A stretch of DNA of 64,000 nucleotides from Naegleria gruberi (Eukaryota). Shown here one piece after another: positions 20,825 to 60,928 of the stretch. The notes beneath the pieces are model-generated. The model made no database searches, was not told where the DNA came from, and saw only the letters and a program-made list of their open reading frames with translations. Both the position numbers and the translations under genes were made by a program. Positions within the stretch are counted from its first letter, which is position 1, and each line of letters starts with the position of its first letter. Where the stretch lies: NCBI GenBank assembly GCA_000004985.1, contig GG738885.1; one strand, written 5' to 3'.

Positions 20825-21214
20825 ATGAGTTATTATGGCAACTATCCAGCTCATCACGGCTATGGCGGATATCAACCAAACATGATGCAACCTCCACAAC
20901 AGCAACAACAACAATATGAAGATGAAGAGGATCATGGAAATAATGTTGCTGACGAATCCGATGTTATTCCAACTCATTTTAGACAATTGAGAGCTTGTTT
21001 GACTTGTGGTCTTGTTAAAACTACTGATCAATTTAAACAAAATGGATGCGAAAATTGTCCAAAGGATAATGATACGCTTTCTAATACAACAACATCATTT
21101 GAAGGATTAATTACATTGATGAATCCACAAAAGAGTTGGGTCGCTAGGTATCAAAACTTGCAAGACAAAGTTGAAGGAGTTTATGCAATCACTGTTCACG
21201 GACAACAAAATTAA
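20825..21214 (+). CDS. SPT4: Transcription elongation factor SPT4 (DSIF small subunit) with a Q/Y/G-rich N-terminal extension, 129 aa.
   Basis: LRACLTCGLVKTTDQFKQNGCENCP...TSFEGLITLMNPQKSWVARYQNLQDKVEGVYAITVHG aligns with the Spt4 zinc-ribbon and NGN-binding core (LRACLLCSLVKT..FE.DGFENC...SF.G.I..M.P..SWV.KWQR....GVYA..V.G). Confidence 0.8.
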   Translation: MSYYGNYPAHHGYGGYQPNMMQPPQQQQQQYEDEEDHGNNVADESDVIPTHFRQLRACLTCGLVKTTDQFKQNGCENCPKDNDTLSNTTTSFEGLITLMNPQKSWVARYQNLQDKVEGVYAITVHGQQN

Positions 21215-23275: not shown

Positions 23276-25709
23276 ATGTTGTATGTATTCATCAATCATC
23301 ATCACGAATTTTTTTTAACGCAAAATTAGATTTAAACTTGATGGCTTGGAGGTCTTCTTTCCATATGACAAAATATATCCTGAACAATATGATTATATGC
23401 GAGATCTTTATAGTTCTATCAGAAAGGGAGGTCATTGTCTTCTAGAAATGCCTTCGGGTACTGGTAAAACAATTTCTCTCTTATCTTTGATTACATCTTA
23501 TCAATTAACAGAGGAAGGAAAGAGTAGAAAATTAATTTATTGCACAAGAACTGTACCGGAAATGGAAAAAGTATTGGAGGAATTAGGTTCATTGATTGAA
23601 TACAGAAAAAAGTATACTGACAGTCCCATTATTGGGGTTGGCTTGAGCAGTAGAAAAAATCTTTGTATTCACCCAAAAAGTCAAAGTTTTCTTCATGATG
23701 GTGCCCAAGTTGACAGTGTTTGTAGAGGTTTAACAGCCAGTTGGCTTAGAGCTGAAGCTAAAGAAAAGGTAGAATCTAGTAATGGTACTATTCAACCAGT
23801 GATTTCAAATAATAATGCTACAGCAACAGTGGATGACATTGAATTATGTAATTATTTTGAAAGATTTATTGAAGCCAATCCTACTGACACAATATTACCA
23901 AATGGTGTTTATACTATGAGAGATTTGAAAGTTTTCGGAAAAAAGAAGGGGTGGTGTCCTTACTTTCTTTCAAGAAGAGCCATTGAATATGCAAATGTTG
24001 TTGTCTACAGTTATTCATACCTTTTGGATCCAAAAATTTCTTCAATTATTTCAAAGAATTTACCAGCTAACTCTATCGTAGTATTTGACGAAGCTCACAA
24101 CATTGATAACGTCTGTATTGAAGCATTATCAATTAATATCGACAGAGATATACTTGGTGTAGCTAAATCCAATCTTACAAAACTAGAAGAAAATATTGCT
24201 AACATGGAAAAAGTAAATAGTCAAAGATTACAGGAGGAATATAGAAGACTTGTGGATGGACTAGGTGCTGTTGGAGTTGGAAGAAGTTCTGATGTGATAA
24301 GATCTGATGATGAATTACTTTCTAATCCAGTATTGCCAGGTGATATTATGACAGAGGCTGTACCTGGTAATATCAGAAAAGCTCACCACTTTGTAAAATT
24401 TATGAAGAGATTTGCAACCCATGTAAACAAAAGATTACAAACACAAAAGTCTGTCAATGAGACACCTGAACAATTTTTGAACCATGTTCTTGAAAATATA
24501 GATATTGATTCAAGGTCTCTAAGATTTTGCTCTGAACGTTTATTATCACTTATGAATACTCTAGAAATCAAGAATATATACGAGTTTAATGGAATTAAGA
24601 TTATAATGGATTTTGCCACATTGATTGGTACTTATCAGGAAGGATTTGTAATTATTATAGAACCACACGATCCAAGAACACCAACAAATCCTGATCCAGT
24701 TCTCCAATTCAGTTGTATGGATGCATCTTTAGCTATTAGCAAACCTATTTTCGGTAGATTCAAAACTGTAGTATTAACAAGTGGTACACTCTCACCTTTG
24801 GATATGTATCCAAAATTATTGAAATTCAAACCAATCATTTCTAAATCTCTTGAAATGACTTTAACCAGAGAATGTATTTGCCCACTTGTATTGACCAGAG
24901 GTAGTGATCAAGTGGCAGTCACAACAAAATATAGATTCAGAAATGATGCCTCTGTTCAAAGAAACTATGGAAGCTTACTTTTGGAATTATCCAAATACAT
25001 CCCTGATGGCATCGTCTGCTTTTTCACATCATATCAATATATGGAGGATATTGTTTCCTTTTGGAACAGTGTTGGTTTATTGAGTTCTATCACCAACCAC
25101 AAACTTGTATTTATTGAAACTCCAAATACTGCTGAAACTGCAATTGCCTTGGAAAATTATAGAAAGGCATGTGATTGTGGTAGAGGAGCTATTTTCTTTA
25201 GTATTGCAAGAGGAAAGGTTGCAGAAGGTATTGACTTTGACGGTCATTACGGTAGATGTGTTGTAATGATTGGAGTTCCATTTCAAAATACTGAAAGTAA
25301 GATTCTTAAAGCCAGATTGAATTATTTGAGACAAAACTTTGCAATCAAAGAAGAAACATTCCTTACATTTGATGCTCTTAGACATGCTTCACAATGTATT
25401 GGGCGTGTTATCAGAAATAAGGCCGATTATGGTATCATGGTTTTGGCAGATAAAAGATATAATCAACCAGATAAGAGAAATAAGCTTCCAAAATGGATTG
25501 CTAAACAAATCAAGGATACCTATCTCAATTTATCAACTGATATGATTATTGGTATTGCCAGGAAATATTTGAAGGAAATGGCTCAACCATACACTGCTAC
25601 TAATCAATTATTGGGACCTGAGGAGATCGAACAACGATCAAAGAAGAGAAATTTCGAAGATGTTACAGATTTACCAACAGAAGATTCTCAACCTCCTCAA
25701 AAGAAATAA
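23276..25709 (+). CDS. XPD: DNA repair helicase XPD/ERCC2/Rad3 (TFIIH subunit); proposed 5-nt first exon (23276..23280, ATGTT) plus 23330..25709.
   Basis: EMPSGTGKT (Walker A), DEAHN (DEAH box) and four Fe-S Cys (NLCIH, VCRG, ELCNYFE, GWCPYF). C-terminal HD2 motifs are GAIFFSIARGKVAEGIDF and QCIGRVIR. The track ORF begins at a TTG (23346) with a stop just upstream. Splicing ATGTT|GTATGT...AATTAG|A gives MLFKLDGLEVFFPYD, matching the XPD N-terminus MKLNVDGLLVYFPYD with DGL at the same positions. Confidence 0.85.
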
Positions 25710-31516: not shown

Positions 31517-34500
31517 ATGTTTTCTTGTTTCTTTCATGATATTTGCATCAAACTAGTTGTTGATCAACAAGATAATAGTTTGACTGAAGAAACATCATCT
31601 TCAATAATGGTTGTTGATTGTTTCTCTCTATTACAAGATCATTATCGGAATGTTATTTCAAAACTACTAGAAAGAAATGAATATATTCATGTTCATCATT
31701 TAAATCAATTATTCGCTTTTGAACGATACAGTGTTAGAAAAATTAATTCCTTCCTCTCTCCAACTGAACATCCATTCCTCGATAATGATTCAACTCTTGT
31801 TTTTATAAAGGTTTTGAAATTTAGGGGAGATTTATTGACATTTGCATCGGAAAGAATTAAAAGTGATGAAACAATGGTTATGATGGCAATAAAGAATAGA
31901 TTGTCATCATTGGAATGTATTGGTGAAAAATTGAAACAAGATAGAAAATTTGTAAAGAAGGCAATTAAATTGGCAAAACGTGTTGTCAATCCTTTACAAT
32001 ATTTTAAAGATTTTCAAGATGATGAAGAAATTTGCAAAATGGCAGTCAAGTGTAAAGGAAGTTCTTATGAGAGTGTATCTGATAGATTAAAGAATGATGA
32101 AACTATTATACAAGATGCACTTTCATCTGCTGGATCTAGTATTCAACATGTTCCACATCATTTAATTAATAGAGAGCTAGTTTTGTTGGCACTTAAATCA
32201 GCTCCATTTTGTTTCCAATTCATTCCACCAGAATATAAGAATGATAATGAATTGATATTAATTACTGCTAAAAATAATCCATATATATTGAAACAATTAC
32301 CAAATCTGTTGAATGAAAGATCATTTGTATTGGAGTTGGTTAAATTAAATGGAGTTTGTATTCAATTTTTATCAGAGGAATTAAAGAATGACAGAGAAAT
32401 TGCTATAGAGGCCACAAAAGAAAAATTCAACTCAGGATTTAGGTTTTTAAGTGATGAATTTAGAAAAGAAAGAGAGTTGGCTTTGATGGCTGTAAAATCA
32501 GATTTTTATAATCTGAAGCACGTTTCCAATGAATTGCAACAAGATAAGGAATTTGTGAGAATTTGTATTAAATCCAAGACAGATTTAACAAGTTACATGG
32601 CTAATGATACTTATGATTCAATTAGAATTAATGATAGGGAATTTTTATTTGAAATTATAGAAAAATTTTATAATTATTCAGAATATAAGTTGTATTTGAG
32701 TAGCGGTAAGGAGATTGTTGAGAGATTTTTAAAAGTGGATCCAAATTGCTTTCAGTGTTTTGATTTACTTCATAATGAAAGAAGTATTGTAATGGAGCTG
32801 ATACCACACAGTATTGATATTTTGAAACTTTCATCAGTGGAATTAAGGAATGATAGAGAAATTATTAGAAAGGCCATTTGTTTTCATGATGGAGCTTTGG
32901 AATTTGCATCAAATGTTTTGCAAAACGAAAGAGAAATTGTATTAGAGGCAATTTATTACAATTCAACAAATTACAAATATGCTTCCGAAGAATTGAGGAA
33001 TGATAGAGAAATATTAGAATACGTTCTTGTAAGAAACGGTAATTTGATTGCCTATGCATCCGAAACTTTACGAAACGATAAGAATTTGGTAATGCTAGCC
33101 CTTAAAAATTCCACGCAAAATATCTCAAAATATATCGGATACAAACTAAAGCGAGATAGAGAAGTAGTTTTAGAATGTGCTAAGAGATATCCATGCCTTG
33201 ATGTAATTTCCTTAGATTTCAGATTTGATAGAGAAATAGTTTCACAAGTTATTCAAAAATATGGAGAGGAATTTAAATTTGCTTGCGAATCTATTCGCAA
33301 TGACAAGAATTTGGAATTAATTGCCCTTACTAATGGATTATCTCTGAAATATATCAAATCTCAACAAGATAGAGAACTAGTAATGTACTCTGTAAAATAT
33401 TCTGGAGAAAATCTTCAATATGTAAATGAAGAATTCAAAAATGATGAAGATATTACTTTAATAGCTATGGAAACATCCAATGGAAATGCGTTAGAATTTG
33501 CGAGTGAAAGATTTAAATCTGATAAGGATTTAATTAGGAAATACATCAAAACAAATGAACATGTACTCAAATATGTTTCACAGAATTTACTTTCTGGTAG
33601 GAAGTTTATTAAGGAAATGTTATCAATTAATGGACTTGCATTACAATTTCTTCCCAATAGGATGAGAAGAGACAGAGAGATTGTGTTGCACGCCATTAAA
33701 TCAAATGGAGATGCCCTTCCATTTGCACTTGGGGGTTTAACTAAGGATTGCGAATTACGCACAATTGCATTTTCAAATGGATTGAAATTTAAAGCACGTT
33801 TTGGCTTCGATGATCTAAACAAGGAATTGATATTGGATATTGTAAAAACAAATCCAAAAATGCTGAATATAATTTTAGCTATGAAAAAAGAATTTAGGAA
33901 CGATCCAGATATTATTCAAAGTGCTGTAAAAATAGATTTGGAATATTTGGACTATTGTGCAACTTATGGAAAATTGAAAACGGATCGAAATTTTATTTTA
34001 CAACTCGAAACAAATGAATTTAATTTGATGAAAATTCCATACAAATTTAGAAGTGATAGAGAAATTGTTTTAAAGTCATTGAAAAGTTATGGAAAATCAA
34101 TCATGTACATTTCTAGTGATGAATTGAAAAAGGAAATTTCACAAGATCGAAATATTTTATTGGAATCCATTCAAAGTTGTGATGGTTTCATATTTTTATT
34201 TGCAAGTAATGAATTACAACAAGATGAAACATTTATTGAAGAATGTATTTCCAAAAATGGAATGGTTTTAAGATTTTTATCTGAAAAATATAGAAATAAT
34301 ATATCACTACTCATGAAAGCAGTTGAAAATAATGAAAATTCGTTGAAATTTGCTTCCAATAATTTATTAACAAATAAGGAATTGATATTACATGCTGTGA
34401 AACATTTTCCAAATTCTTTAAAATATGCCAGTTATGAATTGAGGGACGATAAAGATATAGTGATGGAAGCTATTCGAATAGATCCTAAATCAATCAAGCA

Positions 34501-34534
34501 TGCTTCTATTGAATTACAACAGACTTTACAATAA
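31517..34534 (+). CDS. Large repeat protein built from ~25 tandem DUF4116-like ~36-aa repeats, about 1005 aa; start uncertain.
   Basis: The periodic motif xLKNDREIVLEAIKxNGxALEFASEELRNDKEIxL recurs through the ORF. Every repeat unit has [LF]xxD[RK][ED] then a hydrophobic core. This matches my memory of the DUF4116 repeat family of protists and bacteria. The track ORF begins with a TTG-type start, so the real N-terminus may differ. Confidence 0.55.
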   Translation: MFSCFFHDICIKLVVDQQDNSLTEETSSSIMVVDCFSLLQDHYRNVISKLLERNEYIHVHHLNQLFAFERYSVRKINSFLSPTEHPFLDNDSTLVFIKVLKFRGDLLTFASERIKSDETMVMMAIKNRLSSLECIGEKLKQDRKFVKKAIKLAKRVVNPLQYFKDFQDDEEICKMAVKCKGSSYESVSDRLKNDETIIQDALSSAGSSIQHVPHHLINRELVLLALKSAPFCFQFIPPEYKNDNELILITAKNNPYILKQLPNLLNERSFVLELVKLNGVCIQFLSEELKNDREIAIEATKEKFNSGFRFLSDEFRKERELALMAVKSDFYNLKHVSNELQQDKEFVRICIKSKTDLTSYMANDTYDSIRINDREFLFEIIEKFYNYSEYKLYLSSGKEIVERFLKVDPNCFQCFDLLHNERSIVMELIPHSIDILKLSSVELRNDREIIRKAICFHDGALEFASNVLQNEREIVLEAIYYNSTNYKYASEELRNDREILEYVLVRNGNLIAYASETLRNDKNLVMLALKNSTQNISKYIGYKLKRDREVVLECAKRYPCLDVISLDFRFDREIVSQVIQKYGEEFKFACESIRNDKNLELIALTNGLSLKYIKSQQDRELVMYSVKYSGENLQYVNEEFKNDEDITLIAMETSNGNALEFASERFKSDKDLIRKYIKTNEHVLKYVSQNLLSGRKFIKEMLSINGLALQFLPNRMRRDREIVLHAIKSNGDALPFALGGLTKDCELRTIAFSNGLKFKARFGFDDLNKELILDIVKTNPKMLNIILAMKKEFRNDPDIIQSAVKIDLEYLDYCATYGKLKTDRNFILQLETNEFNLMKIPYKFRSDREIVLKSLKSYGKSIMYISSDELKKEISQDRNILLESIQSCDGFIFLFASNELQQDETFIEECISKNGMVLRFLSEKYRNNISLLMKAVENNENSLKFASNNLLTNKELILHAVKHFPNSLKYASYELRDDKDIVMEAIRIDPKSIKHASIELQQTLQ

Positions 34535-34935: not shown

Positions 34936-37409
34936 TTGTCGCTATCTAGTTTTTCAAGCGAAAACAAAAACAACAACAACAACAATTTAAAATCAACACT
35001 CAATACAATGAAGTTACCTCTGAGATTGGCTAATAAGAGCAAGACTGCGCTCAAGAAGAGTTTCATTCCTAATAGCTTTGTGAATACAATGAAGAGAAAT
35101 TATGCTTGTGGAGGAGGTGTTTGTGATGGAAGTGGAGGATGTGGAGGAAAAGGAGGACACCACCATCATAACCATCCTGAAGAAATTGCTACTTTAAATT
35201 CTAATCAACCAACCCATTCCCATGCTTTTGGTCAATATACATCAAATGTTAACGATCCAAAGAATAGTGGTAGGTTTTATTCCGAAGTTGTTTTTTAATT
35301 ATCATCATGATTGTAATCTATTAATCCCTTTCATTATCTCGTTTCATTATCTTCATCATCTTGAAAATTATACAACATTACTTGATAATCATCTTATAAT
35401 AATAACTCATAGATACTGTAAATATTTTCCTCAATGGTCTTCCTATTCGTGTTCCAAAGAATTTGACAATCTTGGAAGCACAATTGTTTTACAACAAGTT
35501 TGTTGCTAAGAATATGGATATTATGGGAGAGAAATCCCAAGTTGATATTCCAACATTGTGTTATCATCCACGTTTGAAGGAACACTCACCTGCTAACTGT
35601 AGAATTTGCCTCGTTGAAGAGGAAATTAACCCACTCGATGTAGAACAACAAATGAGTTATGCCATTCGTCGTCCATATCCAAAACCAGAAGAACGTCTTA
35701 CTAAACTTGTGCCATCATGCACTAATCATGTTAAGGAAGGAGGATGTTATTGGACTCGTACTCAAACCACCCACGAAAATACCAGATCCATTCTTAAATT
35801 CCTTCTCTCTCACCACAATTTGGATTGTCCATCATGTTCTGCAAACGGAATGTGTGAACTTCAAGATTTATTGGAAAAGTATCACATCTCAAAGAAGGAT
35901 CTCCCACCTTCATTGCGTGACAACTTTACTAACACTTCATCAGAAGAAGTTTTAGTTTCCAACATTGGAACACCAGAGTATATGACAATTGGTGATATTC
36001 AAATTGATCCAGACAAATGTATTAGATGTACTCGTTGTATCAGAACTTGTACTTTTATTCAAGAACGTGATGCCCTCTCCATGTCAGGACGTGGTCACAA
36101 TGAATCAGTTCAACAATTGAACCTCGTTTTGAGTGAAGTCAGTAATGGAACTGAAGAAAGATCTCCATGTATTTCATGTGGTCAATGCAGTCAAATTTGT
36201 CCAGTTGGTGCCATCTCCATTAAGGCTCAACTTGATGAAGTTTCCGAACTTTTATTACAAAAGAGTGTAATGAACGCTTTTGATAATAAGGAAAAGGATT
36301 ATATTATGGTTGCATCAACTGCTCCAGCTGTTCGTGTTGCCATTTCTGAAGAATTTGGTAAGGAACCAGGTCACTATACTGCCTCTCAAATGGTTCAAGG
36401 TTTGAGAAAGCTTGGTTTTGACTATGTTTTCGATACTCTCTTCTCTGCTGACTTGACCATTATGGAAGAAGGTACTGAACTTATCAAGAGACTTACAAGT
36501 GAAACTCCAGGCCCATTCCCTATGTACACTTCATGCTGTCCTGGTTGGGTTAACTTGGTTGAAAGTGATTTCCCTGAAATTATTCCAAACGTCAGTTCTT
36601 GTAAATCACCACAACAAATGTTGGGATCTGTTATTAGAAATTACTGGACACCAAAGATGCAACAACACATTAAGGGTAAGAAGGTTATTCACGTTTCTAT
36701 CATGCCTTGTACAGCTAAGAAGGGTGAAGCTCAAAGACCAGAAATGGGTGTTCCAGATAAGGATGGTAACATTGTTCCAGATATTGACTATGTTTTGACC
36801 ACTCGTGAATTGGGTAAACTTTTCAAGATGCATCAAGTCCATGATTTGGAAACCAAGAGTGTTGGCAATGAAGTTGGAGATTATGACTCTCCAATTGCTG
36901 AAGGTACTGGTGCTGCTGTCATTTTCGGTGTTACTGGTGGTGTCATGGAAGCTGCTTTGAGAACTGCTTATGAAATTCTTGAAAAGAAGCCATTGGAAAG
37001 ATTAAACTTGCAAGAAGTTAGAGGTTTGGATGGTATTCGTTCTGCCACTATCAACATTGCAGGTGTGGATGTTAAGGTTGGTGTTGCTCACGGTTCTGGT
37101 AACTTGAAGAGGTTGGTAAATTATACCAAGACTTTGGATCCAAAGGATCAATTCCACTTTATTGAAATGATGGCCTGCCCAAGTGGTTGTGTAGGTGGTG
37201 GTGGTGAACCAAAGATTGTTGAAAAATTGGAACACCAAGATAGAGTCAAGAGAAGATTACAAGCCATCTACAAGTTGGACGAAGCTGCAATCACAAGAAA
37301 GAGTCACGACAATAGAGAAATCCAACAATTATACAACGAATATTATAAGGAACCATGCGGTCATAAGGCTCACCACGAATTACACACTCACTACACCAAC
37401 AAGAAATAA
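34936..37409 (+). CDS. HydA: [FeFe]-hydrogenase, M3-type (CpI-like full architecture), 2 exons: 34936..35269 and 35413..37409; about 776 aa. It has an unusual Cys/Gly/His-rich N-terminal extension.
   Basis: All three H-cluster signatures are present: TSCCPGW (L1), MPCTAKKGE (L2) and EMMACPSGCVGGGGEP (L3). Upstream are two ferredoxin-type 4Fe-4S motifs (CIRCTRCIRTC, CISCGQCSQICP), a His-ligated cluster motif (HHNLDCPSCSANGMC) and a plant-ferredoxin-like 2Fe-2S domain (INGLPIRVPKNLTILEAQ...LCYHPRL...CRICLVE). The intron GTAGGT(35270)...CATAG(35412) joins ...PKNS|DTVNIFLNGLPIRV in frame. Exon 1 encodes MKLPLRLANKSKTALKK... then CGGGVCDGSGGCGGKGGHHHHNHPEE. Confidence 0.85.
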
Positions 37410-37495
37410 AATTGCCATTTTTGAGGATTTTGCTCCAAATATTAATTTCTCGAAGGAGAATTTCAATCTTACTGAGGAAACAAGTAATAAAATTT

Positions 37496-40213
37496 TTATT
37501 GATTTGAAGCCTGGCTTCTTGTTATTGTAATTGTTGTCTCTGGTTGATCCGTCGACTGTGCTTCCACTTTTCTTGCAGAAGACAGTGAAGATTGTTGATT
37601 GTGAGCTGTGTTTCTCAAGAAATTCTTGATATCATTTTCATTAGCTCTTACCGACATTGTACTAAATCTTGAGGAGACATTGTCGTTTTTCAGACCAACA
37701 AATCCATGAGCACTTGTATGCTTTCTTAGATCCGCTGAATGAGTTCTTGTCTTTCTGACTTCTGTTTGAGCAGATTCTGGCTCGTCGTCTTGTTTCCAAA
37801 CTTCTATTGATTCAGTTGCCTCACTTAATACACTTTCATTTGGTGGTGAAATTGAAATATCAATTGGAGCTCCAGAAATCTTTGGAGGAGCAAGTCTATC
37901 ATCACGGAATTTACCATATATTGAACCATCTTTGGTAGATCTTGTAGAATAATTTGTGTGTGAAGATGTAGGTCTCGAACTTAATTGTCTTAATGATCGC
38001 TTTGTACTCAATGTACGATAAATTGGATTATTACTGTATAAATCCTCATCGTCAGAATCATCTGAAAAGTACTTATTTGGATAATCATCAAAAGTAAATC
38101 CATCATCTTCAAAATATTCTTCCTCTTCATCATCACCTTTTTTACTTCTTGTTGTATATTCGTGAGGTGTTCTCGGTGTAATATTAACAGATACTTGTGA
38201 GAATGTACTCAAAGCTTCTACTAAATCTATTGTAATAAATGGATGTTGTAAAAGTTGTTTAGCAGTTGGACGTTTTGATGGATCACGTTGTAAACAGCTT
38301 CTAATAAAGTCTTTTGCTACTTGTGAAGAATTTGATGGAATTTCAACAGAATCATCTTCTGTTGTCATGATATAGTGCATTAATTGAATGGGATGTACTG
38401 GTTGTTCAAATTTAGATAAAACATGAGACCAAGGAGGATTTTGAGAAAACATTTCACAAATTGTACAACCAAACGACCAAATATCAGCAGCTTGTGTATA
38501 TGATCTATCTCTAATAACTTCAGGAGCAATATAATTTGGTGTACCTCTAATAATATTTGAATTAATAGTTTGAGTTGTTTCATCTCCCAGTGCTAAAGAG
38601 CTCAACTTTTTAGAGCATCCAAAATCTGTCAAGTAAACATTACTCCTTTCATCAACAAGAATATTACCACTCTTGATATCACAATGAACAATTCCATTTT
38701 CATGTAAATAGCTCAACCCTTCTAGAATTTGTTTTGAATACTTTCTAATTAAATTTTCAGGCAATGAAAATTCTAGTAATAAAGTTTCCATAGATCCACC
38801 TGGAATATAATCCAAAAATATATTCAAATGGTTATTAGCAACAAAACTTCCCAAGTATCGTACAATGTGTGGATGATCAAATTGAGACATGAGTTCAACT
38901 TCTTCCATGATTTTCTTTACTTCTTCTCTATTTGTCTTTCCTTTGATTTCAATTTCTTTAATTGCCATCATTTGTCCAGTTTCAGAATTTATACCTAAAT
39001 AAACTTTACCATTTGCACCTGCACCAATCATATTACCTTTTATCCAAGTTTTAATTTTAGATACTCTCCTAGATGGGAATTTTTTAGTAGTTGTAAGTGG
39101 ACTAGAAGGTAGACCATCATTTCTAAGTTTGTTTGCAGAATCTTCAATAATAAGTTTAGGTTTTTTATAAACATTTGCTGAAACAGAATTTTGAAAATTT
39201 AGAAATTTTTCAACAGAACTTTCAACAAAATGATCCAAATCTGTTTGAGTTCTTATTGATATTAATTCATTTTTATCCTCATCATCCGCATATTTAATAT
39301 TAATTTTATCATGTAAATTATCACAAGCTAAAAAGTTATTATAATGACTAGAAATAATTTCAAATAAACCATCCATAGACATTCCTAAAAATACAGATAC
39401 AATAGTTGTTTCCTCTTTGTAAGAGAGTTTTACCTTTATCCTTTTTCCAGATAAAGAATTTGATGAATTTGATTTTGTTATACTTGATGTATTACTCTTT
39501 TTTGATGATCCTGATGATGAAGTTCTCTTCATTGTAGAAATAGAAGTATCAAAACTCCTAACAAGATTTTCTTGTGCTGAATGAATTTGATCATCACCAC
39601 ATTTTACAAGTTGAAATTTGTAGGCTGGCTTTTGCCAAAACCTAGCACGATTAATAAGTCTTAATTCTACATTTGAATTACCATTCTCCTCCGATATTGA
39701 AAATGTATTATTAAATTCTCCTTTTTGACCTCTCCCATATAGAATTCCATCAGCTAGGAATATTTCTTGTCCTTGAGAAGATGTTACTTTAAATATAAAT
39801 TGAAATTTTGAATTTCCTGCTGATTCTATTATTATACTATATTCACCTGGTGATAACTGTTTGGGAATTTAATTAAAATCTTATTATGTTTTTTGCTTGA
39901 AGACACTTACCTCGTTTTGAATAATTCTTTCCTTCTCCGGGAGTGTATCTTCTTCTTGTAATTCAAATCGTGAAGATCCCTTTACCATTGCTGTTATGAT
40001 GCAATATTAATAATAATAAACAACAATAGAAAAACAATAAACCGAAATTTTAAAGTTTGGTTATATATATTGTTGTGATATTAATCACACTACAATAAAC
40101 TCACTTTTAAAAGAGGCAATATCTTCAATAGCACTCTCAGCAAAACTAGTAATAAAAGGATTACTATTCCTTTTTCCTTGTCCGTTTGATGAGAACATTT
40201 TTTTTAATGTCAT
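37496..40213 (-). CDS. Ser/Thr protein kinase of the STE11/MEKK type with an N-terminal PB1-like domain. Core ORF 37496..39532, plus two proposed upstream exons, giving complement(join(37496..39856, 39911..39990, 40105..40213)); about 849 aa.
   Basis: Kinase subdomains are GAGANGKVYLG, AIKEI, HENGIVHCDIKSGNILVD, DFGCSK, GTPNYIAPE and DIWSFGCT. The PB1-like segment is KRIKVKLSYKEETTIVSVFLGMSMDGLFEIISS...IKYADDEDKNELISIRTQTDL. The frame stays open upstream of the track Met. GTAAGT and GTGAGT donors with CAG acceptors connect MVKGSSRFELQEEDTLPEKERIIQNE and MTLKKMFSSNGQGKRNSNPFITSFAESAIEDIASFK in phase. Kinase call confidence 0.8; upstream exons 0.45. Confidence 0.7.
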
Positions 40214-43487: not shown

Positions 43488-46400
43488 ATGGTAAAATGTT
43501 GGCGCCAAAATTTTGCAGACTTGGTAAAACTAAACTACAAAAAAATGTTCCAACAACCAAATCACCTACAAGAGGATAATAGACATTTGTTGGCGGACCA
43601 ACAGAGTATTACTTGGATGAAAGGAGTCATTCAAGACAAATTAACAAAACACAAAGACACATCAGTACAATGGCCACCCGAAGCACAAAGGGTTGTTGCA
43701 GAATTTCTGATTCATGATGAAAATCTCTTGTTGTTCGCTTTCATTAATAATAATCAATACATAGTATCTGGCACTTATGAGCTTGCTAAGAAGAATGTTT
43801 GGGATCGTTTGCTCTTTATACTTAAGGATAAGCCTAGTGAAGAAGTGATATCATTGGATAATATTTCGACAATCATGTCATATGGTATCCTCACTCACGA
43901 ATTACTCGGAGATTTCTTAAACTTGATGAAAAATTACTTTACACCAGATCTTATGGAAGCAAAATCTAATTGGCCAGAAAGTAGGTTCTTTTAATAATAA
44001 TTAACTAACATTTCTTAAGGTCTTCAAAAGGATTTCCTATCTCAACTTCACAAATTTATGGCATATTTAACAGAAACATATTATAGATCAAAAGGATCAA
44101 CAGTACTTTACGTACCAAATGAGGATATTGATTTAGAAAATGCTAAAAACCAAAAGGATTTAATTCAAAGATTAGAAATCGCTTTGATGCACTGGACTTC
44201 CCAAATTAGAGAAGTTGTTAGCGAAAAGGATTCATATGGAGAACATGGTGATAATGCTAGACCATTGTCGGAAATTGAATATTGGAGATCCAGAGCAGAT
44301 GACCTTATTAACATTAAAAAGCAAATCCAAAGAGAAGATGTACAGAAGATAGTTACAGTTCTATCTAATTCGATATATTTAAGTACTTTTGAGAAATTAT
44401 CGACTGATATTCAAAAAGGTTCAGATGAAGCCTTGGATAATCTTAAATACTTGAAAACTTTGCAAGAACCTTGCGAAAAACTTGCGCAAGCAAGTCCACA
44501 AATGATTTCAGACATTTTACCAGAAATATTATTCATGGTTCAATTAATTAATTCTAATTCTAACAGCTATAATACATCTGAAAGAATATCTGGATTGCTT
44601 AAAAAGATCAGTAATGAAATTATTCACATTTGTACAGCCAAGATTTCTTTGACAGATATTTTCAATGGAAATGTTGAGCAATGCATGGAAATTTTAAACC
44701 AAAGTATCAAGGCTGGTGACTACTGGAAAAATTTATCATTAGAAGAGAACGAAAGTGATGCATTTAATTATGATAAGAGTAGTGTTTTCTCTGAAATTGA
44801 TGCTTTTGTAGTAAGATGTGGAGAATTACTTGAGGTTTGTGAAGCCCAGTTACAATTTGGAAGTTTCACAGCATCAATAGATAATACAAAGAATGGTTTA
44901 CCAAAGTTTGGAGGTACTAAAGGACCTGAGGTGACAAAGAGTTTTGTTGATATCAGAATATCTTTCCAAAAATTAATTAACGACTTGAGTAATCTCAAAT
45001 ATCCAATTTTGGATGTTAAATCAACTAATTGGAATGATGACTACAAGAAATTCAAGAATGGAATTAAGGATTTGGAGACTATGATGCAAACGGTTATTAC
45101 TAACGCTTTTGAAACTGTAACTGACTTGCAAAATGGTATTGAATTGTTGGAAGCTTTTTCTTATTTAGCAAAACGAGAATCAATTAAGAGAAGTATTGAA
45201 ACCAAGACTCAATTCATATGTTTGAAATTTATCAAAGAGCTGGAGGATGTTCAAAAATCTTTTGAATTACATAGAAAAAACCCTCCTGTTCCATTTATTT
45301 ATCCAACCTATTCTGGTTCGGCTTTATGGGCTAAAAGACTTCAAGACAGAATTAAAAGAGATAAGGATTACTTGAATAAGGCTCACTTTTTACCAAGAAC
45401 AAAGGAACATCAGGAAGTTGAAAAGAAATATCAACAAGTATATTCAAATTTAGAGAAACATGTGTTGTCTATGTTTGAATCTTGGAACCACTCTTTTTCA
45501 GGGCCAGAGCTTCATTATAAGTTAGAAATTCCTTTGCTTGTTAAATTTGAAAAGATGTTGAAACTCAACTTTGACACAAGCTTGTTAAACATTTTTGAAG
45601 AAGTTAAATATTGGCAAAGATTTTCTAATTTTGATATTAATGAACAGGCTTTAGAAATGTATTGCTATGCCGAGCAAATGCGTTTGTACAGAGAAAATGT
45701 TGCATTAGTCGCTAGGGATTATAATAGTATTATTACCAGTTTATCCGAGCAAGAATCTAGGTTGTTTGTCAAATATATCAAAGAAATTGATAAGCAAATT
45801 CTTCCAGGGTTACATACTCTGGGTTGGACATTGAAAATGCATAACGAGCATTATCTTACTGAATCAAGGAAGAAGTGCAAAGATGTTAAGGAAATTATTT
45901 GCGATTTTAAGCACAATGTTACACAAATTTTTTTGAATTGTAAGAAAATGGCAGATACATTACTGATTAAAATTGAAAATAAGAAAGTATATGATGGTGA
46001 AACAAATGAGTTTGAAAGAGAACAAGAATCATACAGAAAGCTGGTAAAGGATGAACTTGTTAAGTGTCATGAAAATATTGTAAATATGATGGTTAAGCTT
46101 TATGGATATTTTGCAAATGGAGGTCCAGAGATATTCGAGGAATGGTGGGCCTTTGTTGACAATGTTGAACTTAAGATTGATCAGTCCTTGAGAATGACAG
46201 TCAAAAAATCCCTCCAAAAGCTTCTTAACTCTATTAATGGAGTTGATTCTGAAAAAAATAATGAAGGAGGTGGAATCAATAGAAATCCATTGTTCCTTGT
46301 TAGAGTTGATTTGAAAGAAGAAAATGAAGATGAAATCAATCCTGGTTTAAATCCAAATATCAAGGAAATGATGACAATGGTAACAAACGTAAACGGTGAA

Positions 46401-49400
46401 ACAACCAAGATTGTTACTGTCGTGCCTCGTTTGAAGAGGGTTCTTAAGGAGAAAATCCTAGTACATATAAGAGAGGACAAACCAGAGATAGAAGAGGATA
46501 AAATTGATCCTAACTTGTTTATTCCTGAGGAAGGATCTACAAATTACTATGAAAAGAATATTGAACTTGATCCTGATATTATCAAATCAATTGTTTCTAT
46601 TATGGAAGGAATGGATGCTATCACCACAAGAGTTTCAGAAAATCTTAATGAATGGAAAGAATCATTCAAATCTATTTGGAGTGTGGATAAGGACAATTTT
46701 ATCAGAAGATTTGGTATTCCTCATAACCGTAATGCAGGCTCTTTCGAGAAAGAAATCAACAAATATAGAGATGCTCACCAAGAAATTCAAAATAAGGATC
46801 CAACAATGTACATTGGTTATTTGCAACTTGATTTTGCTCCACTTAAACAAACACTTTTCATGGAATGTAATCAATGGCAATCTAAACTTCTTGATCTCTT
46901 GCATAGTAACACCAAGAAAGAGCTTGATAAGAATTATGAACTTTTCGAAAAGAATGGAAAGGGATTACGAGAGGAACCAAGAAATCTTGAAGCTTTGGAA
47001 AAGAAAATCGAACTTGTTGCAAGAATGGACGCTGATTATCCAAAGAAGAAGGCTGGTTTCACTCCTCTATATGAGCAATATGAGTTGTTGAGAAATTACG
47101 ATGTCAAAATTGATGACCGTGAACAAGACAATCTCGATAATTTGGCTGATAACAGCGCCAAGTTTGAAGAACTAATTGAAAAGGCAAGAGGTGAATTAGA
47201 AAATCAAAAAGAAACTTTCCGTATGAAGTTGAGGGCAAATATCGACATTTTTGCAAATTCACTTATTCAACTCAAAGGAGAGTTCGAAAATACAGCACCT
47301 TTCTCTTCTCAATACAGCTTTAAAGAAGCAAAAGCAGTTCTTGATTCTTTCCGTGATAAAGTTGAAGCTAAGAAGAAAGAAGAAGAAAAGCTTAAGAATG
47401 GTTTGAAGATATTCAACATGCAACCACAACAATACAAAGAAATCAAAGATGTTGCTAAGAGCATTGAATCACTTGAAAAAGTTTGGGTGCTCAAGAGTGA
47501 ATGGGACAAAACTTATGATGAATGGAAGTATACGCTCTTTGGAAAGCTAAACATTGAGGAAATGGAAGGAACTTCCACAAGAATATCATCAAAGCTCACA
47601 GCAATGGGAAGAGAGGTCAGAGATTGGGGAGTTTTCAATGGGTTAATTGACAAACTTAATCTTGTAGCTAAAGTTTTGCCATTAATTCAACAGCTTAAGA
47701 ATCAAGCCATGAGAAAGAGACACTGGTCTGAACTCAAGGATATTATAAAACAAGACTTTGAGGAGAATTCTAAAGAGTTTAACTTGGAAAAGATTTTCAA
47801 GCTCAACTTGGAAAATTATGTAGATGATATTACAAACATTTCTAATAGAGCAAGTCAAGAATTAATTTTAGAAAAAGAAATTAAGAAGATTAGTGATATT
47901 TGGTCTAATACTTTCTTAGACATTGTCCCATATAAGGATAATTATTTCAAATTACAATCCACAGAACCTATTTACATTAATTTGGATGATAATGTTGCTT
48001 CACTTGGTGGTATGAAGTTAAATCCATTTATAACATCATTCCAAAGTGATGTCAAGTTCTGGGAAGAAACTTTGGCAAAAATTAACGAAGTTATCGATTT
48101 GCTATTGCTTGTTCAAAGACAGTGGATCTATTTACTTAACATTTTTGATGTTGAAGATATTCAAAAACAATTACATAATGAATTTGGTGTATTTAAATCC
48201 GTAAACTCTAGTTGGAAGAATTTAATGAAATCTTTGAGTGATAATAGAGGAATACTCGCTATTGCTAAGAGAGATAACATTAATATCTTACTTTCTGAAA
48301 TGAATTCCAAACTTGAGTTAATCCAAAAGCAGTTAGATGGCTATCTAGAATTGAAGAGACAAGAATTCCCAAGATTCTATTTCTTGTCTGATGATGATTT
48401 GCTTCAAATTTTGGGTCAAAGCAAAGATCCTAATGCCATGCAACGTCACTTATCTAACTTATTTGAAGGAATTAAGATGTTGAAGATTGAAAAGTCCAGT
48501 GATTCTCGTCAATTTGGATTCTTTGCCAAGAGTTTTATTAGTAAAGAGGGAGAACAAATGGAATTCAATCACCCAGTCCCACTTGAAGGAAATGTTGAAA
48601 AATGGCTTTCACAAGTTGAATTATCTATGAAAGCATCTATTAAGAGAGGTATTTTGAAATGTTTTTCAGCTCTTAAGAATTACTCACAAGAGTCCTCAAG
48701 AGAGTCTTGGATCAAGGAATGGCCTGGTCAATTAGTGCTTTTGTCTTCCCAATTATATTGGACTAAGAAGATTGTTAACGTCCTTTCAAAGCAAAAAGAA
48801 CCATCAAAGATTTTGAAGGAACTCAAACTTAGACTGAAACCAGAATGGATGGACTATCTTACAAGTTATAGTTCTATGGGTAAGGATATGAAGTCACTTG
48901 ACAGACTCAAAGTTATTGCTCTTATTACTCTCGAAGTTCATGCAAGAGATGTTATTGATAGATTGATCAAATGTAAGGTAACATCTTGTGATGACTTTGA
49001 ATGGCAAAAACAAATGAGACTTGAGTGGGATGAAGAAAAGGATGGATGCATTGTCAAGCAAGGAACTAATGAAATTGATTATGGTTATGAGTACATTGGT
49101 AACTGTAGTAGACTTGTTGTTACACCATTAACAGAAAAATGTTTCCTGGCTCTTACAACAGCTTTACAACTGAAGAAAGGTGGTTGCACACAAGGTCCAG
49201 CAGGTACTGGTAAAAGTGAAACTGTCAAAGACCTTGCCAAGGCTGTAGGTAAACATACCTTAATCCTCAACTGCTCTGACAGATTTGATTATCAATCAAT
49301 TGCAAAAACATTCTCAGGTATTGTTCAAACAGGTTCTTGGTCATGTTTTGATGAATTTAACAGACTTGAACTCGATGTTCTTTCAATTGTTGCACAACAA

Positions 49401-52400
49401 ATTCTTCAAATTTTGAACGCTGTTTCAATTGGTGTTGAGAGCTTCATTTTTGAAGGGAATGATATCAAGATCAATCCTACCTGTGGTATTTTCGTTACCA
49501 TGAATCCTAACTATGTCGGAAGAACAGATTTACCAGATAATTTGAAGGTTCTTCTCAGACCAGTTGCAATGATGGTTCCAGATTCTTCTTTGATTTGTGA
49601 AATCAAACTTTACTCACAAGGATTTAAGGATACTCAAACATTATCAAAGAAAATTACAACTATTTATGGTCTTCTTAATGACCAACTCTCCAAACAACCT
49701 CACTATGATTTTGGTCTTAGAAACATATGTTCTTTATTAAGTACTGCCGGTGAATATAGAAAGAATCAATTAACAGAGGATGAAGATTTAATTATTATGA
49801 TGGCTTGTAGAAGTATGAATCTTCCAAAATTGAAACCAGAAGACATTCCAATCTTCAACTCCATCATGAGAGATATGTTCCCTAACAAAGAGTTTATTGA
49901 CAATGTTAATCAAGCATTATCAGATGCCATTACTCAGGTCTTAGTTGAGCAAAATTATCAAGTTTCAAATTATATCATTTCAAAATGTGTTCAACTTGAA
50001 GAAATTTTGGCTGAAAGACATGGTGTCATGTTGATTGGTGATACAATGTCTGGTAAATCAACTACTTGGAAGATTCTACAACACTCTATTAGTAAGGCTT
50101 TCAGAACTGATATCAAGGAATATGTTATCAATCCAAAATCTTTGAATCATGATGAACTTTATGGTAATTATGATAAGAGTAGAGATTGGAAAGATGGTGT
50201 ATTCTCATCTATCCTTAGAGAAGCTGTTAAAGACTCAAAAGAAAACAAACATCATTGGATTGTTTTTGATGGTCCAATAGATACACTTTGGGTTGAATCA
50301 ATGAATACTCTGTTGGATGATACCAAAATGTTAACTTTAATTAGTGGTGATAGAATTCCATTAACACCAAATATTAATCTCTTATTTGAAGTATCAGATG
50401 TGAAATCTGCTTCCCCTGGTACAATCAGTAGATGTGGTATGGTTTACTTTAACTCTAATGAGTTGGGATGGAAACCAATATTGAAGAGTTGGTTTAATCA
50501 AAGAAGGAAGTACGAAGAAAAGATTGGTTATCCTACACCTGATACTATCATTGAATTCTTGAGCCAACTTCTCTTGGAAAAGAACTATATCCAAAGAGTT
50601 CTTGATGAAAAGAATCAACAACACGAATTAGTTCATTTAGTTGATGCACATGCTGTAAAGTCTTTCTGTGCTATGTTTGATGCTTTGGCAACAGTTGAAA
50701 ATGGACTTGATCCTTCTGATTTGGAAGTTTACCAAGATTTAATTAAGAAGTATCTTGTTTTCTGTTTAATTTGGACTATTGGTGCATCTGTTGATGAAGA
50801 GGGAAGAAAGAAGATGGATATTTTATTCAGAGAATATGATCCTCAATTCCCAAGTTCTGATACTGTTTATGAGTACTATATTGATTCAAAGAGCAAATTG
50901 TGGAGACCTTGGAATGAAAGGGTTAACACATCTTGGAAGATGCAAAATGGCGCTCCATTCCACAAACAAATCGTACCAACAATTGATACAGTTAGATCTT
51001 CTTTCATTATCCAAGCTTTACTTAAATCTAATCAACAAGTTTTGCTTACTGGTAATTATGGTGTCGGTAAAACAGCAATCATTCACTCCACATTATCACA
51101 ATTTGATGAAAGACATTACACCACATGTGCTATGTCTTTATGTGCTAAGACTGAATCTGCTGCTGTGCAAAAGTTAGTTGAATCAAAGGTTGAAAAGTCA
51201 TTAGACACATACACACCATATGCAGGAAAACAAATGATTATATTTGCTGATGACTTTAATATGCCTGAAAAGGATGAATTTGGTTCTCAAGCACCTCTTG
51301 AATTGATTAGACAATACATTGACTATGGACTTTGGTATGATAGAAACAAATGTACAGTCAAAAAGTTAAAGAAAGTTCAATTACTTGCTGCTATGGGTCC
51401 AGAAGGACAAGTTTCTAACCGTTTAATTACTAGATTTAACGTTATTAACATTACCGCACCAACAGACGCTCAAATCAGTAGAATTTATGGTACTTTAATC
51501 AGTCAAAGATTGGAGAAATTAGAAGAAGCCAAATCCATTACTGAAGAATTAACAAGTGCAACATTAAGATTATTCAAATCTGTTGTTTCTTACCTTTTAC
51601 CAACACCAAAGAAGAGTCACTATACATTCAACTTGAAAGATTTATCAAGAGTTTTCCAAGGAATTGTTTTTGCTGACCATGAATCTCTTGACAGCAAGGA
51701 TCAAACCTTGAGATTATGGGTTCATGAATGTTATAGAGTATTCCACGACAGACTTTCGAATGAAGAAGATAGAAAGTGGTTTAGAGATAAGATTGGAGAA
51801 CATTTATCAGATGTTTTTGGATATAAGTGGAGACGTTTGTATAGTGCTGTTTATGATGAAGTCCAAAACACAGCCCCATCCCAATCACCTTCACCAGGTG
51901 CCGAAGCTCCGACTGTCTCAACCACTGATTTTATGGATTCAGATGGTATTTACAAACCAACTCTTTTTGGTGATTTAATAATGTTCCATGACAAGAGAAG
52001 TTATGTAGAAATGCCATCAGTTGAAATGGTAAGACAAGAATTAGATACCAGAATTAGAGAATATAATGATAAGTCTGGAAAACCTCCTCTTAAAATTGTT
52101 CTCTTCCATGAAGCTATTGAACACATTTGTAGAATTTATAGAATTCTCAAACAAAGTAGAGGTAATGCACTTTTAATTGGTGTAGGTGGAAGTGGTCGTC
52201 AAAGTCTCTCAAGATTGGTTACACACATGATTGGATACAAACTTGTTGAGTTCCAAATTTCTTCAACATTCTCTCTTAAAGAATTCCAAGAAACAATCAA
52301 GGAGATATATTGGGATGCTGGATTTAAGGGTAAAGAAATTGCTTTAATGTTTTCTGACTCTTCAGTTACTGAGGACATTATGTTTGAAAATGTTAACAGC

Positions 52401-59079: not shown

Positions 59080-59426
59080 TTTTTAATAGGTTAGGTCCTA
59101 ACCTTTAAAATCAACAAAGCCTAATGAGAGGAGTAATCAAAGAGAGAATCTCTCTTTTGTTAATCGATGTGTTGTAATATTACAATACATCATGTACACA
59201 GTTAAAGTGTGTTAGATCAGAGGTCATAACATCAAGCTTGTTATATTATTATATAATTTAACAAGTGTGAAAGGGTCTTTTAATGGTAAAAAAACAATTA
59301 TTAATTTTAAAAATAATATTTCAAGTCAATCGGAAGTGCATAAGCGAATGATCGTGTTGATAATTACAAAATCGGATTTAGGAACGATTAAAAAATCTAT
59401 TTTCAACGTCTATGTTGTCGTGTTAT

Positions 59427-60821: not shown

Positions 60822-60928
60822 TGTAATAACTGTTTGTCTTAATAAATTACTAATCTTGACATTGGTATTTTCAATATGTGTTTGATATTGTACAGTTTTA
60901 GAAAGTAAATGTGGATTAACATCAATAC

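What the first reader, a model, noticed from the sequence alone, without database searches (positions are those of the whole stretch)
34936..37409. Complete M3-type [FeFe]-hydrogenase in an organism that also encodes axonemal dynein
The protein has all three H-cluster signatures plus the four accessory Fe-S domains of clostridial CpI-type enzymes. It is therefore a bona fide H2-evolving or H2-oxidising hydrogenase, not a NARF/Nar1 CIA-pathway protein. Its presence beside typical aerobic mitochondrial genes (KAS, methylmalonyl-CoA epimerase) and a flagellar motor points to a facultatively anaerobic amoeboflagellate lifestyle.
Basis: partly seen in the sequence, partly recalled or inferred. Interest (0 to 1): 0.65.

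Follow-up and report, generated by a model that had tools for sequence, protein, structure and literature searches.

The report
Known Naegleria gruberi cytosolic [FeFe]-hydrogenase gene
This is the already published and experimentally studied hydrogen-producing [FeFe]-hydrogenase gene of the amoeboflagellate Naegleria gruberi, so the sequence observation is correct but nothing about it is new.

Summary
Window 35008-37409 (+) is a two-exon gene with one 143-nt GT..AG intron. Its 752-aa, 83.8-kDa product is 100% identical over its full length to XP_002674266.1, "iron hydrogenase [Naegleria gruberi NEG-M]". All three H-cluster motifs are present. So are all 20 Fe-S ligands of Clostridium pasteurianum CpI, the proton-path residues and the 2Fe-pocket residues. 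It passes the curated group A [FeFe]-hydrogenase model, and its predicted fold matches HydA/CpI structures. It is not a NARF/Nar1 protein.

This exact protein was predicted in the 2010 genome paper and characterised by Tsaousis et al. 2014. They verified the 5' end by RACE, found the enzyme and HydE only in the cytosol, and measured about 6 nmol H2/min/10^7 cells in aerobic culture.

N. gruberi, both lab strain and field isolate, does not grow without oxygen (Bexkens 2018). The enzyme's physiological role and electron donor remain unknown.

One small residue of novelty remains. The N-terminal extension carries a motif of three Cys and two His that is conserved in five heterolobosean orthologues and matches no known domain. 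It may be an extra metal site.

Verdict: already known, low interest.

The parts
35008..35269 (+). Exon 1 of hydA (aa 1-87 plus the first base of codon 88). It encodes the heterolobosean-specific N-terminal extension.
   Evidence: ATG at 35008 with an in-frame stop upstream. Splicing to exon 2 reproduces XP_002674266.1 exactly. Tsaousis 2014 verified the 5' end by RACE.
35008..35100 (+). Basic leader that resembles a mitochondrial presequence (aa 1-31; 8 K+R, 0 D+E).
   Evidence: Composition. The leader diverges among orthologues. Experiments showed it does not target yeast mitochondria, and the protein is cytosolic in Naegleria (PMC4007538).
35095..35247 (+). Conserved Cys3/His2 module (aa 30-80): RNYAC34-GGGV-C39-DGSGG-C45 ... 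QPTH70-S-H72-AFGQYTSN.
   Evidence: The three Cys, the two His and the F..YT.N positions are invariant in five heterolobosean orthologues. There is no Pfam hit. Only one hit was found among 1.84 billion representative proteins, and it is another Naegleria exon 1. AF2 predicts this region as disordered.
35270..35412 (+). Spliceosomal intron: 143 nt, GTAGGT...CATAG, phase 1, 24% GC.
   Evidence: The same intron position occurs in N. fowleri (L003) and in an uncultured relative (L001). The Willaertia gene is intronless.
35413..37409 (+). Exon 2 of hydA (last two bases of codon 88, aa 89-752, then the stop codon at 37407-37409).
35415..35762 (+). FS2 domain, a plant-ferredoxin-like [2Fe-2S] domain (aa 89-204). 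Ligands are C137, C150, C153 and C190. It has lineage-specific insertions at aa 112-126 and 161-183.
   Evidence: Alignment to CpI C34/C46/C49/C62. These positions are invariant across 60 homologues.
35784..35894 (+). FS4C domain, a His-ligated [4Fe-4S] domain (aa 212-248). Ligands are H222, C226, C229 and C235.
   Evidence: Pfam NADH-G_4Fe-4S_3 at 2e-14. Ligand mapping.
36015..36212 (+). 2x[4Fe-4S] ferredoxin domain (aa 289-354). FS4B ligands are C290, C293, C296 and C350. FS4A ligands are C300, C340, C343 and C346.
   Evidence: Pfam Fer4 families. Ligand mapping.
36306..37202 (+). H-domain (aa 386-684). It contains L1 (nt 36528-36548), L2 (nt 36702-36728) and L3 (nt 37164-37211). The [4Fe-4S]H ligands are C463, C520, C676 and C680. 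The proton-relay Cys is C462.
   Evidence: Pfam Fe_hyd_lg_C at 8e-84. Motifs. Ligands, K523, M518, M674, E440, E443, S482 and R447 are all conserved.
37239..37403 (+). Fused C-terminal small-subunit-like segment (aa 697-751).
   Evidence: Pfam Fe_hyd_SSU at 3e-20.

Best explanation
The locus is the single-copy hydA gene of Naegleria gruberi NEG-M (XP_002674266.1 / EFC41522.1 / D2VP17). It has two exons and encodes an 83.8-kDa group A, M3-architecture [FeFe]-hydrogenase.

Mechanism, inferred from residue-for-residue conservation with CpI. Electrons enter at the surface clusters, either FS2 ([2Fe-2S]) or the His-ligated FS4C. They pass through FS4B and FS4A to the [4Fe-4S] part of the H-cluster, and then to the [2Fe] subcluster attached through C680. 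Protons arrive along the R447-E443-S482-E440-C462 relay and are reduced to H2.

The [2Fe] subcluster has to be installed by HydE, HydF and HydG, which are encoded elsewhere in the genome.

Shown by published experiments, not by me: the enzyme and HydE are cytosolic, methyl-viologen hydrogenase activity is found only in the cytosol, and aerobically grown cells release about 6 nmol H2/min/10^7 cells.

The physiological electron donor and the role of the enzyme are unknown. The likeliest reading is a dispensable cytosolic redox valve, because the N. fowleri orthologue and its maturases are switched off when iron is scarce.
For: - The product is 100% identical at 100% coverage to XP_002674266.1. 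Its computed mass of 83,846 Da matches the 83.8-kDa band reported by Tsaousis 2014.
- L1, L2 and L3 are present, along with all 20 cluster ligands, the proton relay and the 2Fe-pocket residues.
- TIGR02512 '[FeFe] hydrogenase, group A' scores 447 bits against a cut-off of 406.
- PDB sequence matches: 4e-123 to HydA of T. kivui HydABC and 1e-98 to CpI.
- The AF2 model (pLDDT 78.8, pTM 0.80) superposes on 8a6t_A, 7q4w_A and CpI with target TM-scores of 0.88-0.89.
- The gene is eukaryotic, not contamination. It has a spliceosomal intron shared with N. fowleri, host-like low GC, and flanking genes that are a DUF4116 repeat protein, a Ser/Thr kinase and an axonemal dynein.
- Experimental characterisation: PMC4007538.
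- In N. fowleri under iron limitation, hydrogenase protein falls 3.7-fold, activity falls 95%, and HydE and HydG fall too; the authors state the 'function ... is unknown' (PMC7326272).
Against: Nothing contradicts the identification.

Open points:
- No PFO is reported in the genome, so the classical ferredoxin-linked donor pathway is missing.
- How an H-cluster survives in an aerobic cytosol is unexplained. The residues that give CbA5H its oxygen protection are not present here: Y459, V481 and F670 resemble CpI's F296, L318 and F493, not CbA5H's L364, P386 and A561.
Confidence: 0.97

Rival explanations
1. It is a mitochondrial hydrogenase that supports facultative anaerobic ATP generation. This was the 2010 genome-paper prediction and is the first reader's reading. 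The basic N-terminal leader would act as a presequence, perhaps only under hypoxia or in another life stage.
For: The first 31 residues are presequence-like, with 8 K+R and no D/E, and orthologues have similar basic leaders. The genome paper predicted targeting signals for HydA and all three maturases (as cited).
Against: Immunofluorescence, cell fractionation, enzyme assays and GFP fusions in yeast all place HydA and HydE in the cytosol, with zero activity in mitochondria. N. gruberi NEG-M and a field isolate do not grow anaerobically, and no anaerobic energy metabolism was seen. No PFO is reported. All of this was tested only in aerobic trophozoites.
Confidence: 0.04
2. It is the catalytic HydA subunit of an NAD(P)H-linked or electron-bifurcating multimeric hydrogenase (HydABC-like), not a stand-alone ferredoxin-dependent enzyme. 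That would explain H2 production without PFO.
For: The best sequence and fold matches are the HydA subunits of bifurcating HydABC complexes (8a6t, 7q4v/7q4w), ahead of CpI. The best-scoring NCBIfam model is 'NADH-dependent [FeFe] hydrogenase, group A6' at 614 bits, against 437 bits for the clostridial ferredoxin hydrogenase model. The nearest non-eukaryotic relatives are Thermotogae A6-type enzymes at about 43% identity.
Against: The A6 score is below its curated cut-off of 765. No NuoE/NuoF-like partner gene lies in the window. Closeness of eukaryotic HydA to Thermotogae enzymes is a general feature of eukaryotic hydrogenases, including ferredoxin-dependent hydrogenosomal ones; the crude NJ tree groups this protein with chytrid enzymes. 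No biochemical data exist.
Confidence: 0.15
3. It is a NARF/Nar1-type cytosolic Fe-S assembly factor that only looks like a hydrogenase.
For: It is cytosolic, and it shares the Pfam families Fe_hyd_lg_C and Fe_hyd_SSU with NARF proteins.
Against: It has the full M3 accessory-cluster set, an intact TSCCP motif with the proton-relay Cys, and K523, M518 and M674 lining the 2Fe pocket. It passes the group A hydrogenase model. Cells have hydrogenase activity, H2 output and the maturases.
Confidence: 0.01
4. It is bacterial contamination or an assembly artefact in the eukaryotic window.
For: The closest non-heterolobosean homologues are bacterial. Local GC is slightly raised, 0.39 against about 0.31.
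Against: It has a spliceosomal intron at a position shared with N. fowleri. Eukaryotic genes flank it on both sides. Orthologues exist in three heterolobosean genera. The cDNA was cloned from Naegleria.
Confidence: 0.005

Closest known systems
Naegleria gruberi NEG-M [FeFe]-hydrogenase XP_002674266.1 (Fritz-Laylin 2010; Tsaousis et al. 2014, PMC4007538)
   Same: It is the identical protein: 752 aa, 100% identity, 83.8 kDa.
   Different: Nothing differs. The window is this gene.
Orthologues in Naegleria fowleri (P0002 / NF0008540), Willaertia magna (P0004), an uncultured relative (P0003 / L001) and a Naegleria fragment (P0121)
   Same: They are 67-79% identical. They share the same insertions, the same N-terminal Cys3/His2 module and, within Naegleria, the same intron position.
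   Different: The leaders diverge. The Willaertia gene is intronless. The 1012-aa N. fowleri model reads through the true stop codon, which is an annotation artefact.
Clostridium pasteurianum CpI (1FEH), the archetypal M3 ferredoxin-dependent [FeFe]-hydrogenase
   Same: The domain order is the same, all 20 cluster ligands match, the proton relay is the same, and the fold matches with target TM-score 0.88-0.89.
   Different: Identity is only 33%. Naegleria adds an 87-aa N-terminal extension and insertions at aa 112-126, 161-183, 265-281, 319-325 and 369-379. It has Y459 in place of CpI F296. It scores below the clostridial NCBIfam cut-off, 437 bits against 900.
HydA of electron-bifurcating HydABC (T. 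kivui 8a6t, A. woodii 7q4v) and Thermotogae 'group A6' enzymes
   Same: These are the best-scoring solved and bacterial relatives, at 36-43% identity with the same cluster set.
   Different: No HydB or HydC partners are known for Naegleria. The protein scores below the A6 cut-off. It carries heterolobosean-specific insertions and the N-terminal extension.
Organellar eukaryotic HydA (Trichomonas and Neocallimastix hydrogenosomes; Acanthamoeba mitochondria, PMC13632651)
   Same: They belong to the same enzyme family and have maturases. The crude NJ tree groups this protein with chytrid enzymes.
   Different: Those enzymes are imported into organelles and fed by PFO and ferredoxin. The Naegleria enzyme is cytosolic, and no PFO is reported.
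NARF / Nar1 / IOP1
   Same: They share a distantly related H-domain scaffold and a cytosolic location.
   Different: NARF proteins have no catalytic [2Fe] site and no FS2 or FS4C domains. This protein has all of them.

Membership tests
[FeFe]-hydrogenase, group A (HydA) | H-cluster signatures L1 TSCCPxW, L2 MPCxxKxxE and L3 ExMACxxGCxxGGGxP | tested here: met
   Found at aa 460, 518 and 672. Invariant across 60 homologues.
[FeFe]-hydrogenase, group A (HydA) | Four Cys ligands of [4Fe-4S]H including the bridging Cys, plus the proton-relay and 2Fe-pocket residues (CpI C299, E279, S319, E282, R286, K358, M353, M497, P231, Q325) | tested here: met
   All align to identical residues: C463, C520, C676, C680; C462, E440, S482, E443, R447, K523, M518, M674, P392, Q488.
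[FeFe]-hydrogenase, group A (HydA) | Passes the curated family HMM (TIGR02512) | tested here: met
   446.9 bits against a cut-off of 405.95.
[FeFe]-hydrogenase, group A (HydA) | HydE/HydF/HydG maturases are present and H2 turnover is measured | not testable with these tools
   No maturase was found among the window ORFs scanned. Both features are reported in the literature for this organism (PMC4007538).
M3 (CpI-type) architecture | N-terminal [2Fe-2S] FS2, His-ligated [4Fe-4S] FS4C, a 2x[4Fe-4S] ferredoxin domain, and a fused small-subunit-like C-terminus | tested here: met
   All 16 accessory-cluster ligands are conserved. Pfam finds NADH-G_4Fe-4S_3, Fer4 and Fe_hyd_SSU. The predicted fold superposes on CpI with target TM-score 0.88-0.89. 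An extra 87-aa extension lies outside the M3 definition.
Clostridial ferredoxin hydrogenase (NCBIfam NF040762) | Score above the curated cut-off | tested here: not met
   437 bits against a cut-off of 900. The model was built for prokaryotes.
NADH-dependent [FeFe] hydrogenase, group A6 (NCBIfam NF040763) / HydABC catalytic subunit | Score above the curated cut-off, and HydB/HydC flavoprotein partners | tested here: inconclusive
   It is the best-scoring model but falls below its cut-off, 614 bits against 765. There are no partner genes in the window. The rest of the genome was not searchable here.
NARF / Nar1 (CIA pathway) | H-domain scaffold that lacks the catalytic 2Fe-pocket and proton-relay residues and lacks FS2 and FS4C | tested here: not met
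   The catalytic residues and the FS2 and FS4C domains are all present, so this is not a NARF. No explicit tree with NARF sequences was built.
Organellar (mitochondrial or hydrogenosomal) hydrogenase | Functional N-terminal presequence and organellar location | not testable with these tools
   The leader composition is presequence-like. Published experiments show cytosolic location and no import into yeast mitochondria.
CbA5H-type O2-protected [FeFe]-hydrogenase | Small residues at CbA5H positions L364, P386 and A561 that let the TSC loop cap the distal Fe; SLBB and Zn domains | tested here: not met
   N. gruberi has Y459, V481 and F670, like CpI's F296, L318 and F493. It has no SLBB or Zn four-helix domain. 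CbA5H-like PDB chains score lower than CpI. The A561-to-F493 equivalence rests on a constant offset of 68, which is my inference.

The most novel reading that the evidence does not exclude
The heterolobosean-specific N-terminal extension may not be a decayed transit peptide. Its conserved core, C-x4-5-C-x2-5-C followed by P-x-H-x-H-x-F-x-x-Y-T-x-N, may form a fifth metal site, either Zn or an Fe-S cluster. That site could dock the unknown cytosolic electron donor, drive oligomerisation, or help the enzyme cope with an aerobic cytosol.
Probability: 0.2. Interest if true: 0.4.

Novelty: already known. Interest (0 to 1): 0.1.

Why it matters
The gene mattered in 2010-2014. A hydrogenase in a mitochondriate aerobe was first taken as support for a metabolically mixed ancestral mitochondrion. 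It was then shown to be cytosolic and active in air. Re-finding it adds nothing.

Two known gaps remain: what feeds electrons to it without PFO, and how an H-cluster works in an aerobic cytosol. The sequence here gives only one new handle on those questions, the conserved Cys3/His2 N-terminal module and the lineage-specific insertions in the electron-entry domains. That is a modest lead for enzymologists, not a discovery.

Tried and rejected
- Locating the N. gruberi contig by exact protein look-up returned no record. Provenance therefore rests on the 100% protein identity.
- The N-terminal 87 aa were searched against 1.84 billion representative proteins. Only one hit came back, another Naegleria exon-1 fragment. 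Pfam found nothing for the extension. It belongs to no known domain, and no similarity to other proteins was detected.
- AF2 with a 60-sequence alignment leaves residues 1-83 disordered (pLDDT about 30), so it gives no structural clue to a metal site. Only three sequences in that alignment (four rows minus P0003, whose model lacks exon 1) carry the extension, so this is uninformative rather than negative.
- CbA5H-like oxygen protection was considered and rejected on the three determinant positions.
- Alternative initiation at M28 (MKRNYAC) as a way to skip the leader was considered. The Met is shared only with P0121 and is absent in N. fowleri, L001 and Willaertia, so I dropped it.
- The NJ tree of the 120 best hits plus CpI is crude. 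It has no support values and no NARF outgroup. I use it only to say that the heterolobosean sequences form one clade among eukaryotic and Thermotogae-like group A enzymes, far from CpI.
- The supplementary figures of Tsaousis 2014 are not held. I could not check whether the authors had already remarked on the Cys/His motif.
Full report
**What is there**

The region holds two open frames on the + strand, 34936-35298 and 35463-37409, in different phases. Reading the DNA shows a canonical intron, GTAGGT...CATAG, at 35270-35412. It is 143 nt long, 24% GC and phase 1.

The first ATG is at 35008. Splicing 35008-35269 to 35413-37409 gives a 752-aa protein. That protein is 100% identical over 100% of its length to P0001, "iron hydrogenase [Naegleria gruberi]", with accessions XP_002674266.1, EFC41522.1 and UniRef100_D2VP17, on a 362,555-bp scaffold. 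The gene model and the organism are therefore settled.

**Is it a real hydrogenase?**

Pfam finds four families:
- Fe_hyd_lg_C, 8e-84
- Fe_hyd_SSU, 3e-20
- the His-ligated-cluster domain NADH-G_4Fe-4S_3, 2e-14
- a 2x[4Fe-4S] ferredoxin domain

L1 TSCCPGW, L2 MPCTAKKGE and L3 EMMACPSGCVGGGGEP are all present.

I aligned the protein with CpI. I recalled the CpI sequence from memory, then checked and corrected it against PDB 1FEH. I also included seven homologues. Every ligand is conserved:
- FS2: CpI C34, C46, C49, C62
- FS4C: H94, C98, C101, C107
- FS4B: C147, C150, C153, C200
- FS4A: C157, C190, C193, C196
- H-cluster: C300, C355, C499, C503
- Proton-relay and 2Fe-pocket residues: C299, E279, S319, E282, R286, K358, M353, M497, P231, Q325

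The same positions are invariant in a 60-sequence alignment.

The curated model TIGR02512, "[FeFe] hydrogenase, group A", is passed at 447 bits against a cut-off of 406. An AlphaFold2 model (pLDDT 78.8, pTM 0.80) superposes on HydA of T. kivui and A. woodii HydABC and on CpI, with target-normalised TM-scores of 0.88-0.89.

So the architecture is M3: four accessory clusters in three domains, plus a fused small-subunit-like tail. A NARF/Nar1 assignment is excluded by the catalytic residues and the accessory domains.

**It is eukaryotic, not contamination**

The gene has a spliceosomal intron. N. fowleri and an uncultured relative have an intron at the same position. The window has a uniform low GC of about 0.31. 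The neighbours are eukaryotic:
- a 20-repeat DUF4116 protein upstream, 31517-34534
- a convergent PB1 + Ser/Thr kinase gene, 37496-39532
- an axonemal dynein heavy chain, 44058-57604, whose best PDB matches are the Chlamydomonas inner-arm I1 beta chain and human DNAH2

**It is already known and characterised**

Tsaousis et al. 2014 (PMC4007538) cloned exactly XP_002674266. Their findings:
- They confirmed the long 5' coding end by RACE.
- They detected an 83.8-kDa protein. My computed mass is 83,846 Da.
- Immunofluorescence, fractionation and GFP fusions in yeast showed that the hydrogenase and HydE are cytosolic.
- Methyl-viologen hydrogenase activity was found only in the cytosol.
- They measured about 5.8 nmol H2/min/10^7 cells in aerobic culture.
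- They noted the conserved H-cluster and accessory-cluster cysteines, the three maturase genes, and the absence of PFO.

Later work on N. fowleri shows that the hydrogenase, HydE and HydG are down-regulated under iron limitation, with activity falling 95%. That paper states that the function of the cytosolic hydrogenase is unknown (PMC7326272). HydE now serves as a routine cytosolic marker (PMC9540462). A 2026 Acanthamoeba study cites the Naegleria enzyme as "reported cytosolic HydA".

**The lifestyle inference**

Bexkens et al. 2018 (PMC6205838) tested it. Both NEG-M and a field isolate never grown in rich media stop growing without oxygen. They contain only ubiquinone and show no evidence of anaerobic energy metabolism. 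Tsaousis et al. also failed to maintain cells anaerobically. Proximity of the gene to mitochondrial-enzyme genes and a dynein gene carries no functional weight in a eukaryotic genome.

**What kind of group A enzyme is it?**

The closest non-heterolobosean relatives are Thermotogae enzymes named "NADH-dependent [FeFe] hydrogenase, group A6", at about 43% identity. The best solved relatives are the HydA subunits of bifurcating HydABC complexes.

The A6 NCBIfam model scores highest, 614 bits, but falls below its cut-off of 765. The clostridial ferredoxin hydrogenase model scores 437 bits against a cut-off of 900. A crude NJ tree places the four heterolobosean sequences as one clade next to chytrid hydrogenosomal enzymes, among eukaryotic and Thermotogae-like sequences and far from CpI.

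This fits the published picture of eukaryotic HydA. An NAD(P)H-linked partner system remains possible but untested.

**Features not obviously covered by the literature I could read**

The N-terminal extension. Relative to CpI and Thermosipho, the heterolobosean enzymes share an 87-aa N-terminal extension. In five orthologues the basic leader diverges, but a core is invariant: three Cys (C34, C39, C45), then P-x-H70-x-H72-x-F-x-x-Y-T-x-N. The five are:
- N. gruberi
- N. fowleri (L003)
- Willaertia (P0004)
- an uncultured relative, whose exon 1 the gene caller missed (L001)
- a Naegleria fragment (P0121)

The module has no Pfam match. It has no detectable relatives outside Naegleria among 1.84 billion representative proteins. 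AF2 predicts it as disordered. A Cys3His-type Zn site stabilises the CbA5H dimer and is reported to be retained in bifurcating [FeFe]-hydrogenases (PMC11760498), so an extra structural or redox metal site is conceivable. This is inference only.

Insertions. The heterolobosean enzymes also share insertions at aa 112-126 and 161-183 (both inside the FS2 domain), 265-281, 319-325 and 369-379.

Oxygen protection. The CbA5H "safety-cap" determinants are absent. N. gruberi has Y459, V481 and F670 where CpI has F296, L318 and F493. Aerobic activity therefore remains unexplained by sequence.

**Verdict**

The ecological interpretation is contradicted by published experiments. The finding is already known. 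Interest is low, at 0.1. The one untested lead is the conserved N-terminal Cys3/His2 module.

Noticed in passing
window 35095-35247 (aa 30-80 of HydA); L001 nt 41-316; L003 6001-6300; P0121: A conserved Cys3/His2 motif lies in the otherwise divergent N-terminal extension of heterolobosean HydA. It has no known domain and no relatives outside the group.
   Followed up: partly
L003 6001-9308 (N. fowleri, VFQX01000028.1): The 1012-aa N. fowleri gene model P0002 skips the genuine stop codon (...HTHYHSRK*) through a predicted intron and fuses an unrelated downstream ORF. This is probably an annotation artefact. The true HydA is about 757 aa.
   Followed up: partly
L001 2-349 and 325-2367 (ENA ERZ27315067 k141_791943): A metagenome contig from an uncultured Naegleria-like organism carries a hydA orthologue at 79% identity. 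Its exon 1 was called as a separate 115-aa gene, and the intron position matches N. gruberi.
   Followed up: partly
window 31517-34534 (+): A 1005-aa protein immediately upstream of hydA is made almost entirely of about 20 DUF4116 repeats (Pfam 2e-186). Its function is unknown.
   Followed up: no
window 44058-57604 (+): The axonemal dynein heavy chain (inner-arm I1 beta / DNAH2 type) reads as two ORFs that overlap by 4 nt at 53918-53921. This implies a short intron or a frame change there.
   Followed up: no
window 23346-25709 (+): An XPD/Rad3-type helicase (DEAD_2, HBB, Helicase_C_2). Members of this family are known (from general knowledge, not tested here) to be cytosolic or nuclear [4Fe-4S] proteins.
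   Followed up: no
window 8658-10226 (+); 6339-6857 (+); 20825-21214 (+); 469-951 (+): Other genes seen: a cytochrome P450 split into two ORFs (probably by an intron), a polyubiquitin, Spt4, and a Polyketide_cyc2/START-like protein.
   Followed up: no
window 58001-64000: GC drops to 0.23-0.27 with strong AT skew swings. The ORFs here (57640-58383, 59427-60821, 60929-61825, 62049-63062) have no significant Pfam match.
   Followed up: no
window 37410-37495: Only 86 bp separate the stop codons of hydA and the convergent kinase gene, so the 3' UTRs must be very short or overlap.
   Followed up: no
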